The notes below the pieces were generated by a model. It did no database searches, was not told the DNA's origin, and saw nothing but the letters and a program-made list of their open reading frames with translations. Of a DNA stretch of 64,000 nt, positions 47,281-61,300 are shown in pieces. Location: the NCBI RefSeq assembly GCF_009914755.1, contig NC_060926.1; one strand, written 5' to 3'. This stretch comes from the human T2T-CHM13v2.0 reference genome, Homo sapiens. The position numbers and the translations under genes were made by a program. Each line of letters opens with the position of its first letter. Within the stretch, counting starts at the first letter, position 1.

Positions 47281-47372
47281 CTGCACTTCTCAAATTAGGG
47301 TCCAGCCCTGGCATCTCTTTGTTAGCTTCAGGGCTGACACTGTAGATTGATGCTCCTGCTTCACTGACGATA
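47281..47372 (-). CDS. SRBD1: SRBD1 internal coding exon (92 nt; phase 2 in, phase 1 out), encodes (C)[30 protein letters not shown]
   Basis: Minus-strand acceptor ctttttctgtcttctcAG (AG at 47374-47373) and donor GCAG|GTAAGA (GT at 47280-47279). The peptide contains the Tex-family EAGASxYS motif and matches the SRBD1 protein as I recall it. Confidence 0.96.
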
Positions 47373-48689
47373 CTGAGAAGACAGAAAAAGGGGAATATCA
47401 CTTTCCTAACTTCCTGCCTGGTCAAAGAAAATAAATGAATGAAACCAGGCATTACCAGAAAAAAAAAAATAACAGGGCAAACTGTTCTCTTCATATCTCA
47501 ATGATACTGACAGCATCTAATATTTCATTAATATAAAATGATTATGCAGCGTTTGTTTTTTTCACATATGAAATACACAGACTTAAATCCATAATGAATT
47601 CAATCAGAGAAATCAGTTGCTTTCTCTGTCACTGGTAACAATAGATGGTTTATAGATTAATACAATGAATACTCTCCCATGATGCCAACTTCAAAATATT
47701 CAGAATGCACATAGCCTCTCCTGTATTTATAATTCATTATTGACTGACATTTATGATTCTTACCTGAATGAATCATTCTAAGGCACCTTGAAAAGCATAT
47801 GGACATATGTGTGGATATGTGCACATGCAGACATACAAAAAAACCACCATCATAAGCACTGTTATTGTTATTACCTGGTTATAATTAACAACCACAACAT
47901 GAAAAAAAAAAAGGGATCAGACAGGATGTCATCCGACTTCTTTTCAGGAGGGTCTGAAAATCATCATCCTTTCAGTGAACTTAAAGTCTTCCACTCAGGC
48001 AGGTGTTAATTCCTTTCATCATTTATTTAATCAAATAGTCACACAAATCATTCTCTTTCATTCTCTTCCTTTCTTCTTTGGCTCCAAATACCATACAACC
48101 CACAATGAGAATACTGTCTTACAGCTGACATTTGTATGGGGATTGCCATTTTGTACAGCTTATGAAAAATTTTTACATTAGAGTTCTCCTTTATGACATG
48201 ACAGGCAAAGAAACATCATCTACTCTAAGTATACACAATACATGTGGCTCTATACCATGTGACCATGTAGGTGTCAATATTCAAAACCAGAAACATGTTA
48301 GGGCTCACTTTTTAATTCACTCTTAGCAACCTCTCCCTTTCTCTGCTCCTCAGTATTTACTTCAATTGCATGAGGCAAATTTAATGGATGACATGTAACG
48401 TACTGCCCCACTGTAACAACTGAACATTGAGAAGTAAAATGTGGAAAAGTTAGTTTGCTATCCCCATCTTTGGAGAATTCTTGAATAAATTTTTATGACA
48501 AATGTAAGCCACCACAACTTGAGAAGATTATTCTGGGGAATGTGACAACTTCTCTTTCTGCAACCAAGATCTACTCTCTTAAATTTAAATAGAAAAAAAT
48601 AAACACTACAACTGAAAAGCAAGGCTGCTTATCCTGTTTTTCATCATCACCATCATCATGATACAATAACAGCTGAGTGCATATTATAC

Positions 48690-48850
48690 ACAAAGCAAAA
48701 AAACACTTTACAGACATTATCTCATTTAATGGAGTAGGTTCCATTTTGGGGATAAGTAGTATGCCCAAGATCATATAGCTGGAAAGGAACTGAGTTAGAT
48801 TTGGACCCTAACCTGCTTGATTTCCAAGTCTGAGCCCTTAACCAGCACAA
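48690..48850 (-). mobile_element. MIR
   Basis: tgcccaagatcatatagct...gatttggaccc...gcccttaaccagcac. Confidence 0.6.
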
Positions 48851-50856
48851 CCAGGTAACCCTTAAATAGTTTCTCAAACTCTCAATAAAATGAGAACTCA
48901 TATTTTTGTGCCAAACAACAAACGCAACATATTTTTCTAAGGAAGAGCTACTTTCTCAAACAAAAGATCTAGAAGAACTCGTATCTCTCTTCCTTTGCCT
49001 TTTTCTTTGATCAAAAGGTAAAGTGAATTGTTTACTTATCTAAAGCAGAACTTGAGGACATATAGGAGTCAAATACGTTCCATAACTTCAGAGACCAGCT
49101 TCAAAATTAAAAGGTAATACTGCATTTTCTCCAAAATAACATTTACATTACGCTTATCTTCTAATAATATAATGATCAAGGAGAAAATGTAATGTTAAAT
49201 AAAGCTTGTAGTGAAGAAAATGTAGTGTTACATAATAATGTGATGTTAAAACTAAATTAAGAAGTGATTTTTTCAGTTCCATTATAGTGGCATTTCCTAA
49301 CCAGGGGCCCTTGGACTATTGGGCAGGAAGAGGCAGGATTAATCAGAACTGCATGTAAAATGTTTGTGTTTATATAAATTTTCCCCCAAGGAAAGCTGGT
49401 TCTAGCATTCATTGATTACTTAAATTCGTGACCCCCAAAAAGGTTAAGAAACACTACTACAGGATAAGAATATTTAGCCACCACCTATGGAAAATTCATT
49501 TTTAAATACAAATCAACATTCAATCTAACAAAGTCTTTTCTAAAAAGACAGAGTATCCATGAAGTACAGGCTAGACCTATTATTAAGAGAAAAGAATATT
49601 TTTTTAAATCTCACCACAGATTTATTTTCTATCATTTCCAGAAGCCTCCAAAGTTACAACTATTTAAATAAAAGGAACTTAAATGGTAAATAAAAATTCC
49701 AATTAACTGTGGTTGTTAGCAACTGGGTACCTGAGAATTTGCTGGGCTTTTGGAGGTTATAATTTTCAATAGACTGAGGGAAACTATTGCAAAGAAAAAC
49801 ACTCAGATAATAAATATTCCTCCAAATACCATACTGCCATTTCTTTTAAACAGAGGAATACAAAACAGATGTGACACATTGCACCCAAAGATTGTGGATT
49901 AACATTAATATTAAATCAATACAAAATGTAGTAAATTTCATATGCTTTACTTACTGAAGAGTATGTGTCTAATACACAGTTCAGTGCTCAGCATAGATCA
50001 GAAATCTTAAATAACCTAAATGCACAGAAAAACCTCAACATTGATTACTTCAATATAAAACATGTAAGGACTGAAGAAGTATATGTGACTAGAATTAATG
50101 AAACAAATCAAACTGGGAGTGATGATTTTTTTCCAGACATTGCTAAGAACAAAAGTTTTAATACCCTCCCTTTTTCATTCCTATTTAAGAGTTCAAGAAT
50201 AGACACTTGCCAAAAGTACACTAGATTTACGAAAACACTTTCTGTTTGATGGGAAATTTTCCAATAAACTATTGGGAAATTATTCCAATTATCTCTAATA
50301 TATTTTGAAGAAAGCAAAAATGAACTTTATATAAAATTCATATATCTAACGATTTAATATTACATTTCACAAAACAAATTTCTCAGCAGTACAAACAAAT
50401 TAGCCTCAAAATCCTAGCAATTTGATTATTTTATGTATTTTGCCATGAAGCAGATGACTGAGCAGAATTTATCATCTGGGGGGATTTTAACTGCCACAGT
50501 TGTAATTCAACTAATTATTTATAGATTATTACAGTACTCAGAAGGCCCTTCAAATTGCTATAGTTTAGACCTTCACCTAAACCAATACATTAGTATTTCA
50601 AGCTTTAGATATAAGAAAGTACACTTCAGAAGCTAGCATTGAATTTACATTTTACCAGATCTAAAAGTTAATATGCCAATTCTCTATAATTAAATTGATA
50701 ATTTAAGATATTTTATTTAAGCACTATTTTTAGGATTTTTATTTTAAGGAAACAAACCACACACTTATAAAGTAAAAAGCAAGTAAAGTACCTACAATAT
50801 CAACGCATTCACTTTCAAATTTTTTAACAAAAACCCTATTGAGTTAAAAATGCTGC

Positions 50857-59401: not shown

Positions 59402-59472
59402 AGCTATTATAAATGAGACTGCTTTCTCGATTTCTTTTCCAGATTGCTGCTAGTATATATAAACAATATTGA

Positions 59473-59760
59473 TTTTTTTTTTTTTAAGACAAGGTCTGGC
59501 TCTATTGCCCAGGCTGGAGTGCAGTGGCACAATCACGGCTCACTACAACCTCCACCTCCCACACTCAAGCTGTCCTCCCACCTTGGCCTCCCAAGTAGCT
59601 GGGACTATAAGCACATGCCATCATGCCCAGCTAATTTTTTTGTAGACATGGGGTTTCACCATGTTGCCCAGGCTGGTCTTGAACTCATGCGCTCAAGCAA
59701 TCCGCCCGTTTCGGCCTCCCAAAGTGCTGGGATTACAGGTGTGAGCCACCACAGCCAGCC
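59473..59760 (-). mobile_element. AluJ inside the L1MA
   Basis: TSD aaca(a/g)tattgatttt at 59462-59476 and 59761-59775. Confidence 0.9.
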
Positions 59761-60358
59761 AACAGTATTGATTTTCATATGTTGATTTTGTATTCTGCAA
59801 CTTTACTGAATTCATTTATCACTTCTAAGAGTTTTTTGGTGGAGTCTTTAGGTTTTGAAAATATAAGATGGTGTTGTCTGTAAACAAGGATAATATGACT
59901 TCTTCTTTTCTAATTTGGATGCTCTTTATATATTTCTCTTGCCTAAATGCTCTGGCTAGGTCTATGTTGGATAGAAGTGGGAAAGTAGGCATACTTGTCT
60001 TGTTCTGTATCTTAGTAGAAAGGCTTTCAGTTTTTCCCCATTCAGTGTATTAGCTATGGGTTTGTCATATACAGACTTTATTGTGTTGAGGTATGTTCCT
60101 TCTCCACCCAATTTGTTGAGAGTTTTCATCATGAAGGGACACTGGATTTTACTGAATGCTTTTTCAGCATCTATTGAAATGATCATATGGTTTTTGTCCT
60201 TGATTCTGTTGATGTGATGTATCACATTTACTGATCTGCATAAGTTGAACCATCCTTGCATACTTGGGATGAATCTCACTTGAAACACAAAACTTTTAAT
60301 TTTAAAAAAATTTTTTGATTTTTAATTTAAAATATTTTTTAGACAAGATATCACTCTG

Positions 60359-61300
60359 GAGGGGAGGTGGTTCCAAGATGGCCAAATAGGAACAGCTCCA
60401 GTCTACAGCTCCCTGCGTGAGCGACACAGAACACGGGTGATTTCTGCATTTCCAACTGAGGTACTGGGTTCATCTCACTGGGGCTTGTCGGACAGTGGGT
60501 GCAGCCCACCAAGCGTGAGGTGAAGCAGGGCAAGGCATCGCCTCACCCAGGAAGCGCAAGGAGTCAAGGAATTCCCTTTCCTAGCCAAGGGAAGCTGTGA
60601 CAGATGGCACCTGGAAAATCGAGTCACTCCCACCCTAACACCGTGCTTTTCCAATGGTCTTAGCAAACGGCACACCAGGAGATTATATCCCACGCCTGGC
60701 TCGGAGGGTCCCACACCCACAGAGCCTTGCTCATTGGTAGCACAGCAGTCTGAGATCGAACTGCAAAGCGGCAGCAAGGCTGGGGTAGGGGCACCTGCCA
60801 TTGCTGAGGCTGGAGTAGGTAAACAAAGCAGCTGGGAAGCTCGAACTGGGTGGAGTCCACCGCAGCTCAAGGAGGCCTGCCTGCCTCTGTAGACTCCACC
60901 TCTGGGGGCAGGGCACAGCCAAACAAAAGACAGCAGAAACCTCTGCAGACTCAAATGTCCCTGTCTGACAGCTTTGAAGAGAGTAGTGGTTCTCCCAGTA
61001 TGGAGTTTGAGATCTGAGAACGGACAGACTGCCTCCTCAAGTGGGTCCCTGACCTCCGAGTAGCCTAACTGGGAGGCACCCCCCAGTAGGGGCAGACTGA
61101 CACCTCACACGGCCGGGTACCCCTCCAAGACGAAGCTTCCAGAGGAACAATCAGGCAGCAACATTTGCTGTTCAGCAATATTGGCTGTTCTGCAGCCTCT
61201 GCTGCTGATACCCAGGCAAACAGGGTCTGGAGTGGACCTCCAGCAAACTCCAACAGACCTGCAGCTAAGGGTCCTGACTGTTAAAAGGAAAACTAACAAA
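60359..61300. promoter_or_regulatory. L1 5'UTR bidirectional promoter region (sense + strand; antisense - strand)
   Basis: YY1 core CAAGATGGCC at 60374-60383 and an almost complete 5'UTR. Many CpGs appear decayed, so activity is uncertain. Confidence 0.6.
60475..60801 (-). CDS. L1 ORF0 (antisense 5'UTR ORF), open for 108 codons from ATG
   Basis: MAGAPTPALLPLCSSISDCCATNEQGSVGVGPSEPGVGYNLL...VGVTRFSRC resembles the primate L1 ORF0 peptide. ATG at 60801 is in strong context (GCAATGG). Expression is not demonstrated. Confidence 0.7.
   Translation of the reverse strand: MAGAPTPALLPLCSSISDCCATNEQGSVGVGPSEPGVGYNLLVCRLLRPLEKHGVRVGVTRFSRCHLSQLPLARKGNSLTPCASWVRRCLALLHLTLGGLHPLSDKPQ

What the first reader, a model, noticed from the sequence alone, without database searches (positions are those of the whole stretch)
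47281..60801. Candidate in-frame L1 ORF0-SRBD1 fusion driven by an intronic L1 antisense promoter
Seen: the L1 lies opposite to SRBD1, so its antisense ORF0 reads in the SRBD1 direction. The ORF0 ATG (60801, GCAATGG) is stop-free to a GT donor TCCAG|GTGCCA. The last exonic base is 60611, 191 nt from the ATG (63 codons + AG, phase 2). The next SRBD1 exon starts in phase 2 (T ATC GTC...), so the splice gives ...VTRFS-S(AG+T)[11 protein letters not shown]... in frame. Established: primate L1 5'UTRs have an antisense promoter, and ORF0 has internal splice donors that can fuse to downstream host exons (L1-MET-type chimeras). Inference: when the L1 is demethylated it could yield an N-truncated SRBD1 isoform lacking most of the YqgF-like region but keeping the downstream HhH/S1 domains. 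Phase agreement alone has about 1-in-3 chance odds, and the donor is only moderate.
Basis: partly seen in the sequence, partly recalled or inferred. Interest (0 to 1): 0.8.

Follow-up and report, generated by a model that had tools for sequence, protein, structure and literature searches.

The report
Old intronic L1; fusion unsupported
An old, internally deleted L1 retrotransposon lies backwards in an SRBD1 intron, and although its antisense ORF0 happens to match the reading frame of the next exon, the splice site needed is weak and no transcript has been reported, so it looks ordinary.

Summary
These are the ATG at 60801, the open frame, the GT after 60611, the 191 nt (phase 2), the exon at 47372 and the in-frame junction.

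None of it exceeds expectation. The ATG, open frame and 191-nt spacing are inherited L1 features: 16 of 29 closest copies have ATG plus open frame, and 26 of 29 have the spacing. Only the phase match is local, at 1-in-3 odds.

The element is a 1.5-kb TSD-flanked L1 (5'UTR joined to 3' end), about 84% identical to young L1s.

In this lineage the two canonical ORF0 donors are poor:
- SD1 is GC.
- SD2 is GTGCCA, with no +5 G in any of the 29 relatives.
- By a rough score, 571 of 3667 GT sites in the window do as well.
- A stronger donor at 60547 is out of frame and stops after three codons.

Pinson 2022 lists this L1 as ASP-bearing but found no chimera from it. Three other supplement sets do not list SRBD1.

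Verdict: ordinary intronic L1, and the fusion is hypothetical and unlikely. RNA data were not available.

The parts
60359..61307 (+). L1 5'UTR, starting at the element's first bases. It holds the antisense promoter region and ORF0 on the opposite strand.
   Evidence: Homology to 29 intact relatives runs from about base 1-27 to base 949 of a query that starts at 60359. Pinson Table S1 lists it as hg19 chr2:45728454-45729394, +, 'L1P1', model positions 2-953, 9.8% diverged.
61120..61248 (+). 129-nt segment of the 5'UTR that is present here and in the 29 closest copies but absent from all 30 young copies.
   Evidence: young copies align to query 1-761/765 and 889/891-949 only. Its identity with the ZNF93 target segment lost in younger L1s is recalled (Jacobs 2014) and was not read here.
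61308..61878 (+). L1 ORF2 3' end and 3'UTR, joined directly to the 5'UTR. About 4.6 kb of the element is missing.
   Evidence: Read by eye. Homology to the 5' halves of intact copies stops at 61307. The model has 5202 positions left after 953. The assignment of this piece to ORF2/3'UTR rests on recalled L1 sequence.
61879..61889 (+). L1 poly(A) tail.
   Evidence: printout of 61875-61925.
60345..60358 (.). Target-site duplication, left copy (14 nt).
   Evidence: the same 14-mer lies at 60345 and at 61888.
61888..61901 (.). Target-site duplication, right copy. It lies in the 3' end of an older Alu that the L1 split.
60475..60801 (-). ORF0 of this copy: ATG at 60801, 108 codons, stop at 60477-60475.
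   Evidence: Young copies stop after 71 codons in 22 of 30.
60690..60699 (-). Position of the first canonical ORF0 donor. Here it reads CCAG|GC, not GT, and it is phase 1.
   Evidence: GC in 23 of 29 close relatives and GT in 4 of 29. CCAGGT in 29 of 30 young copies.
60605..60613 (-). The last exonic base is 60611 and it is phase 2.
60541..60549 (-). Stronger donor TGG|GTGAGG. The last exonic base is 60547 and it is phase 0. Joined to the exon it stops after three codons.
   Evidence: 7.0 versus 3.5 bits on a recalled matrix, and U1 duplex -9.8 versus -6.8 kcal/mol..
60473..60481 (-). Second phase-2 donor candidate CCA|GTGAGA. The last exonic base is 60479, just before the ORF0 stop. It would also be in frame with the exon.
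47281..47372 (-). SRBD1 coding exon (end of the YqgF-like domain). It needs two bases from the upstream exon. An in-frame ATG lies at 47314.
   Evidence: plus the hub's annotation.

Best explanation
This is an ordinary fixed insertion of an older primate L1. The element has a 5'UTR joined to its own 3' end, is about 1.5 kb long, and is flanked by a 14-nt target-site duplication. It lies antisense in an SRBD1 intron. Its antisense strand still carries the family's ORF0 start and open frame. The 191-nt distance to the GT is a constant of the family, and the match with the phase of the next exon is a 1-in-3 coincidence. In this lineage both canonical ORF0 donors are poor: the first is GC and the second is GTGCCA. 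If the antisense promoter fires at all, the likely products are unspliced or non-coding read-through RNA, as for most L1 chimeric transcripts. A second likely product is RNA spliced from the better, out-of-frame donor at 60547, which ends in an early stop. An in-frame ORF0-SRBD1 protein would be a trace product at most. Shown: the anatomy, the family comparison, the relative donor quality and the absence from four catalogues. Inferred: that the promoter is weak or silent here and that the weak donor is little used.
For: Anatomy.

Family default, not a local feature:
- ATG plus open frame in 16 of 29 close copies, and 191 nt in 26 of 29.
- The same donor 16-mer occurs 949 times in the genome. 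The GTGCCG form occurs 1335 times and the young GTGCGT form 793 times.

Donor quality:
- None of the 29 close copies has G at +5, whereas 27 of 30 young copies do.
- The candidate scores 3.5 bits and -6.8 kcal/mol. The two annotated SRBD1 donors score 11.1 bits / -11.0 and 8.1 bits / -8.3. The donor at 60547 scores 7.0 bits / -9.8.
- 571 of 3667 minus-strand GT sites in the window score at least as well as the candidate, 126 of them between the L1 and the exon.
- The 60547 junction gives a stop after 3 codons.

Literature:
- Pinson 2022 (passages and supplements seen) had this L1 in its list of 9123 ASP-bearing L1s. It does not list it among the chimeras found in 8 gliomas and 3 control brains. 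The one SRBD1 row there is another L1.
- Only 44 of their chimeric transcripts (2.9%) were spliced at the 5' end.
- Antisense starts are mapped at +300 to +500 and also at +150 to +250. ORF0's ATG is at about +444 and the donor at about +254, so many starts would miss one or both.
- No SRBD1 in the held supplements of Criscione 2016 (10 files), Lanciano 2024 (9 files) or the ReFuse paper (1 file).
- 0 papers hold SRBD1 together with 'antisense promoter' and 'LINE-1'.
Against: - No RNA-seq junction, CAGE or long-read data could be queried, so absence of the transcript is not shown.
- Old L1s can be active. Pinson reports chimeras from 20.6% of L1PA7 copies, and another L1 in the same gene gave reads in three glioblastomas.
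- ORF0's ATG has a good context (G at -3, G at +4). It is the first ATG for any start between about +445 and +806.
- The acceptor of the exon is a strong constitutive one.
- The donor score rests on a matrix recalled from memory. Only the U1 duplex energies are computed.
- GT sites with CAG before them and a weak downstream part are used in some genes.
- The catalogues cover few tissues. ESTs are shallow, and paper reading closed before two pluripotent-cell and neuronal catalogues could be checked.
- Eight other RefSeq SRBD1 models were not shown to me.
Confidence: 0.8

Rival explanations
1. When the L1 is derepressed, its antisense promoter starts upstream of ORF0, the GT after 60611 is spliced to the exon at 47372, and an ORF0-SRBD1 fusion is translated. 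That protein would lack the N-terminal part and most of the YqgF-like domain.
For: The frame, phase and junction are confirmed. ORF0 fusions through two internal donors are described (passages). The ATG context is good and there is no upstream ATG up to about +806. The site is positionally the second canonical donor.
Against: The donor is weak in this lineage, and there is a stronger out-of-frame donor 64 nt downstream. It is not found in four catalogues. Most L1 chimeric transcripts are unspliced at the 5' end. The fusion would start inside a folded domain, at profile position 89 of 126.
Confidence: 0.06
2. The L1 acts as an alternative promoter without an ORF0 fusion. Antisense transcripts splice from the better donor at 60547, or from donors in the flank, to the exon. 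ORF0 then ends in an early stop. The RNA is degraded, or a truncated SRBD1 starts at the in-frame ATG at 47314, as in L1-MET-type transcripts.
For: 60547 is the best donor within the ORF0 region. A GT at this position is present in 26 of 29 close and 20 of 30 young copies under the commonest spellings. The junction gives a stop after 3 codons, and the exon holds an in-frame ATG with G at -3. Criscione describes L1 antisense transcripts as alternative starts downstream of the gene's own start.
Against: The same lack of any transcript evidence applies. Reinitiation after an 88-codon upstream frame is inefficient, which is general knowledge and not tested here.
Confidence: 0.08
3. Exonisation rather than initiation. 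Part of the antisense L1 is occasionally included as a cryptic exon in ordinary SRBD1 pre-mRNA, using an acceptor in the antisense L1 and one of these donors. Junction reads to 47372 would then exist without any antisense-promoter activity.
For: Criscione removed such cases because antisense L1s carry cryptic splice sites. A pyrimidine-rich ...ttttccttttaacag site lies at about 61280 on the minus strand.
Against: No evidence for it at this locus. The implied exon would be over 600 nt long.
Confidence: 0.04

Closest known systems
L1 ORF0 and ORF0-host exon fusion proteins (Denli et al. 2015, Cell 163:583). Known here only through passages of PMC4859970, PMC7746726 and PMC9396940; the paper itself was not held.
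   Same: An antisense ORF in the L1 5'UTR with a good start context. It has a GT at the position of the second internal donor and sits upstream of, and in phase with, a host exon.
   Different: This copy belongs to an older lineage, about 84% identical to young L1s. Its first donor is GC and its second is GTGCCA instead of GTGCGT. One extra base there shifts the frame, so ORF0 runs 108 codons instead of 71. No transcript or peptide is known.
L1 antisense-promoter chimeric transcripts (LCTs, for example L1-MET): Criscione 2016 PMC4908685 and Pinson 2022 PMC9396940.
   Same: An ASP-bearing L1 5'UTR, antisense in an intron and pointing at downstream exons. It is listed among the 9123 ASP-bearing L1s of Pinson Table S1.
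   Different: No chimera is recorded from it in that study's 11 samples. The gene is absent from Criscione's 988-gene EST set as held in the supplements.
The other SRBD1 L1: L1PA7, hg19 chr2:45652654-45654421 (Pinson Table S2, Id_246).
   Same: Same gene, same orientation (+, antisense to SRBD1), and also a 5' fragment of an L1 (1768 bp).
   Different: It lies about 76 kb further down the gene, outside the window (found in L061). It is only 72-76% identical to this copy, in two pieces, with no alignment over the ORF0 region. It did give chimeric reads, one each in three glioblastomas and unspliced by its coordinates.
Internally deleted or spliced L1 insertions (SpIREs, Larson 2018 PMC5860796).
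   Same: An insertion flanked by a target-site duplication with intact 5' and 3' ends and a missing interior.
   Different: Here about 4.6 kb is missing, from the end of the 5'UTR to late ORF2. By eye the 5' edge is not followed by GT in the sense strand, so splicing is unlikely. This was not tested further.

Membership tests
L1 ORF0-host exon fusion (Denli type) | Primate L1 5'UTR with the antisense promoter region, lying antisense to the gene and upstream of a coding exon | tested here: met
   The 5'UTR spans 60359-61307 on +, SRBD1 is on -, and the next exon of the selected transcript is at 47372.
L1 ORF0-host exon fusion (Denli type) | ORF0 ATG present, with an open frame up to an internal donor | tested here: met
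   This is also true of 16 of 29 close copies and 25 of 30 young copies.
L1 ORF0-host exon fusion (Denli type) | A functional internal splice donor (the two described ORF0 donors) | tested here: inconclusive
   The first donor is GC here. The second is a GT but reads GTGCCA (3.5 bits on a recalled matrix, U1 duplex -6.8 kcal/mol). Young copies read GTGCGT, which scores 9.1 bits. Use in cells is not testable here.
L1 ORF0-host exon fusion (Denli type) | Phase agreement between donor and host exon | tested here: met
   Chance odds are 1 in 3. The stronger donor at 60547 fails this test.
L1 ORF0-host exon fusion (Denli type) | Transcript evidence: a capped start in the antisense promoter and the junction in RNA | not testable with these tools
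   No RNA data were available. As an indirect test, SRBD1 or this L1 is absent from the chimera lists in the held supplements of four papers.
LCT-producing L1 (Pinson 2022 definition) | Listed as an ASP-bearing L1 (start below model position 400, end above 600) | tested here: met
   The row of Table S1 seen, and the method passage.
LCT-producing L1 (Pinson 2022 definition) | Chimeric read pairs detected | tested here: not met
   The single SRBD1 row of Table S2 is another L1. A search of the supplements for the hg19 coordinates of this L1 found it only in Table S1. The study covers 11 brain and glioma samples only.
Full-length L1 | About 6 kb with ORF1 and ORF2 | tested here: not met
   About 1.53 kb between the target-site duplications. 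Homology to the 5' halves of intact copies ends at 61307.

The most novel reading that the evidence does not exclude
In cells where old L1 5'UTRs are derepressed (early embryo, germ line, hypomethylated tumours, loss of KRAB zinc-finger control), this copy starts transcription upstream of ORF0. It then uses one of its two phase-2 donors (60611 or 60479) to make an ORF0-SRBD1 fusion. That protein would lack the N-terminal half but keep the helix-hairpin-helix and S1 parts. It would be a primate-specific isoform of a conserved Tex-like RNA-binding protein.
Probability: 0.06. Interest if true: 0.35.

Novelty: already known. Interest (0 to 1): 0.12.

Why it matters
As it stands it matters little. 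Thousands of L1 5'UTRs lie in introns, and a third of those facing an exon will be in phase by chance.

If the fusion were shown, it would add one member to the known class of ORF0 fusions. It would also give a truncated form of SRBD1, a poorly studied protein.

One by-product is more general. In the copies sampled here, the two canonical ORF0 donors are features of young L1s only. Older copies carry GC at the first and GTGCC(G/A) at the second. Phase-matching alone will therefore over-call ORF0 fusions from older L1s, and screens should check the donor of each copy.

Tried and rejected
- Literature for an SRBD1-L1 transcript. One search found 0 papers. One search showed none of the 25 listed papers holding SRBD1. 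One search found 5 papers with SRBD1 and 'transposable element'. One passage was read and is only a gene list. The other four were judged irrelevant from title and abstract alone.
- Papers not held. Denli 2015 and Speek 2001 were not held, so the exact published donor positions and start sites come from secondary passages.
- Subfamily naming. I looked up a close chr2 relative in Pinson Table S1 by estimated hg19 coordinates and found nothing. The subfamily stays 'L1P1' as listed, in a lineage that carries the 129-nt segment.
- Catalogues not reached. Paper reading closed before the supplements of PMC12791003 (pluripotent cells) and PMC10619931 (neurons) could be searched. Those may bear on the claim.
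- Earlier findings of this scan were not open.
- Rejected idea: that the donor changes are private mutations of this copy. The closest 29 copies share them.
- Rejected idea: that the internal deletion is a splice product. This was judged by eye only.
- No structure or complex prediction was run. Neither would bear on whether the RNA exists.

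
Full report
**Observation**

Reading the minus strand shows the antisense side of an L1 5'UTR. An ATG lies at 60801-60799 in the context GCAATGG. Translation from it is open for 108 codons.

That is 191 nt from the ATG, or 63 codons plus two bases.

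The SRBD1 exon begins at 47372 behind a pyrimidine-rich acceptor. Its frame is fixed independently. The 30 codons after the first base match Pfam Tex_YqgF (E 2.9e-9, profile positions 89-118 of 126). They also match Pseudomonas Tex residues 419-447 of 785 (E 1.6e-4).

**What the element is**

The L1 lies on the + strand from 60359, beginning with the first bases of a full-length 5'UTR.
- Homology to intact relatives runs to 61307.
- From there the sequence continues directly in the last ~570 bases of the element, which I recognise as late ORF2 and 3'UTR from recalled L1 sequence. It ends in a short poly(A) at 61879-61889.
- The same 14-mer flanks both ends, at 60345-60358 and 61888-61901. This is therefore one insertion lacking about 4.6 kb of its interior. 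It landed in the 3' end of an older Alu.
- Pinson et al. 2022 (PMC9396940) list it in Table S1 as hg19 chr2:45728454-45729394, +, 'L1P1', model positions 2-953, 9.8% diverged.
- The hg19-to-T2T offset this implies is 222,095. It agrees with the offset of a second L1 that I located in the genome (222,097). It is close to that of two L1PA2 copies 430 kb away (about 221,900).
- The copy is 87-93% identical to its closest genomic relatives over the 5'UTR and 82-85% identical to 30 young copies.
- It and all 29 close relatives carry a 129-nt segment (61120-61248) that all 30 young copies lack. I recall this as the ZNF93 target lost in younger L1s, but I could only see a search listing for it.

**Is the ORF0 arrangement special?**

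I compared two sets of copies.
- The 29 closest copies came from the window's own genome. One search scored 40 of 5054 first-look candidates and kept 30 loci, including the window's own.
- The 30 young copies came from a 22-nt pattern taken from a published ORF0 primer. That pattern has 856 matches in the genome, and the first 30, all on contig 1, were taken.

| Feature | This copy | 29 closest copies | 30 young copies |
|---|---|---|---|
| ATG present | yes | 27 | 30 |
| ATG plus stop-free run to the GT | yes | 16 | 25 |
| Exactly 191 nt from ATG to the GT | yes | 26 | 24 |
| ORF0 length | 108 codons | varied | 71 codons in 22 |
| CpG in the 551 aligned bases | 16 | median 14 | median 29 |

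The start, the open frame and the phase-2 position of the GT are thus what any copy of this family brings along. The only fact specific to this locus is that the next exon needs two bases, which has 1-in-3 odds.

**The donors**

| Site | This copy | 29 closest copies | 30 young copies |
|---|---|---|---|
| First canonical ORF0 donor | CCAG\|GC | GC in 23, GT in 4, other in 2 | CCAGGT in 29 |
| Second canonical ORF0 donor | GTGCCA | GTGCCA in 21, GTGCCG in 4, three other forms in 4; none has G at +5 | GTGCGT in 27 |

For the young set, the fetching pattern itself fixes the bases from +4 onward of the second donor. The bases before it are free.

Genome-wide, the 16-mer with GTGCCA occurs 949 times, with GTGCCG 1335 times and with GTGCGT 793 times. 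The weak form is therefore the state of the lineage and not a private mutation of this copy.

The matrix is a nine-position frequency matrix that I recalled from memory, so those figures are rough. The U1 duplex energies were computed with ViennaRNA.

| Donor (last exonic base) | Matrix score (bits) | U1 duplex (kcal/mol) |
|---|---|---|
| Candidate (60611) | 3.5 | -6.8 |
| Annotated SRBD1 donor (47281) | 11.1 | -11.0 |
| Annotated SRBD1 donor (36034) | 8.1 | -8.3 |
| TGG\|GTGAGG (60547) | 7.0 | -9.8 |
| Young GTGCGT form | 9.1 | not computed |

In addition:
- 571 of 3667 GT sites on the window's minus strand score at least as well as the candidate. Of these, 126 lie between the L1 and the exon.
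- An identical-scoring CAG|GTGCCC lies 7 nt after the ATG.
- The donor at 60547 is in phase 0. Joined to the exon it stops after three codons.
- A further phase-2 site at 60479 (CCA|GTGAGA, 5.3 bits) would also be in frame.

**Transcription**

According to passages of Pinson 2022, antisense starts map to +300 to +500 and also to +150 to +250 of the 5'UTR. ORF0's ATG is at about +444 here and the candidate donor at about +254. A good part of such starts would therefore lack the ATG, and some would lack the donor.

In Pinson's data, 1571 chimeras came from 9123 ASP-bearing L1s. [quoted passage not shown]

**Catalogues**

- This L1 is in Pinson's input list but not among the chimeras. A search of the supplements for SRBD1 gave one row (Id_246). 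It belongs to an L1PA7 at hg19 chr2:45652654-45654421, with one read in each of three glioblastomas.
- I located that element about 76 kb further down the gene, outside the window. It is only 72-76% identical to this copy, in two pieces, with no alignment across the ORF0 region.
- SRBD1 does not occur in the held supplements of Criscione 2016 (10 files; Results parts 1-2 read), Lanciano 2024 (9 files) or the ReFuse lung-cancer paper (1 file).
- Full-text searches found no paper linking SRBD1 with the L1 antisense promoter.
- Limits: full-text search does not cover supplements, Denli 2015 and Speek 2001 were not held, and paper reading closed before two further catalogues could be searched.

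**Consequence for the protein, if the fusion formed**

The exon corresponds to positions 89-118 of the 126-position YqgF-like profile. It also means the fusion would begin inside a folded domain.

**Verdict**

The sequence facts are right, but the finding is an ordinary intronic L1 with a coincidental phase match. The donor needed is weak in this lineage, a better donor nearby is out of frame, and no transcript is recorded.

Whether trace amounts of the junction exist can only be settled with RNA data that I could not query. I put about 6% on a real in-frame fusion RNA of more than trace level, and about 8% on an out-of-frame or non-fusion alternative-promoter transcript.

The kind of event (ORF0 or antisense-promoter chimeras) is well known.

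Noticed in passing
window 60359-61901: The L1 is one insertion flanked by a target-site duplication, with an intact 5' start and a poly(A) but about 4.6 kb of interior missing (5'UTR joined to late ORF2). It landed in the 3' end of an older Alu, whose remainder lies at about 61902-62040 on the minus strand.
   Followed up: partly
window 60605-60613 and 60690-60699; loci L002-L060: In the copies sampled, both canonical ORF0 donors are derived states of young L1s. Older copies have GC at the first donor. At the second they have one extra base (GTGCC G/A instead of GTGCGT), which also shifts the frame. As a result the 71-codon ORF0 of young copies is 108 codons here and of varied length in relatives.
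   Followed up: partly
L061 (G000:C2:45429000-45434000), about locus 1558-3300; outside the window at about -15,400: A second L1 5' fragment lies antisense in SRBD1 (L1PA7 in Pinson Table S1). It gave chimeric reads in three glioblastomas (Id_246). Its ORF0 region does not align with this copy.
   Followed up: partly
window 60473-60481: A second phase-2 GT (CCA|GTGAGA, last exonic base 60479) lies just before the stop of the extended ORF0. It would also join the exon in frame.
   Followed up: yes
window 47312-47314 (minus strand): There is an in-frame ATG inside the exon (context AAAGAGATGC). It could start a truncated SRBD1 on any transcript that enters at this exon.
   Followed up: no
window 60100-60285: A fragment of an older L1 (ORF2-like by eye), oriented with SRBD1, lies just before the Alu/L1 insertion site. 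It carries a good GT site (CAA|GTGAGA, last exonic base 60280) that read-through antisense transcripts could use.
   Followed up: no
window 60359-60518: The first ~160 bases of the L1 5'UTR are not in the hub's list of masked repeat stretches, which starts at 60519, although they align with other L1 copies.
   Followed up: no
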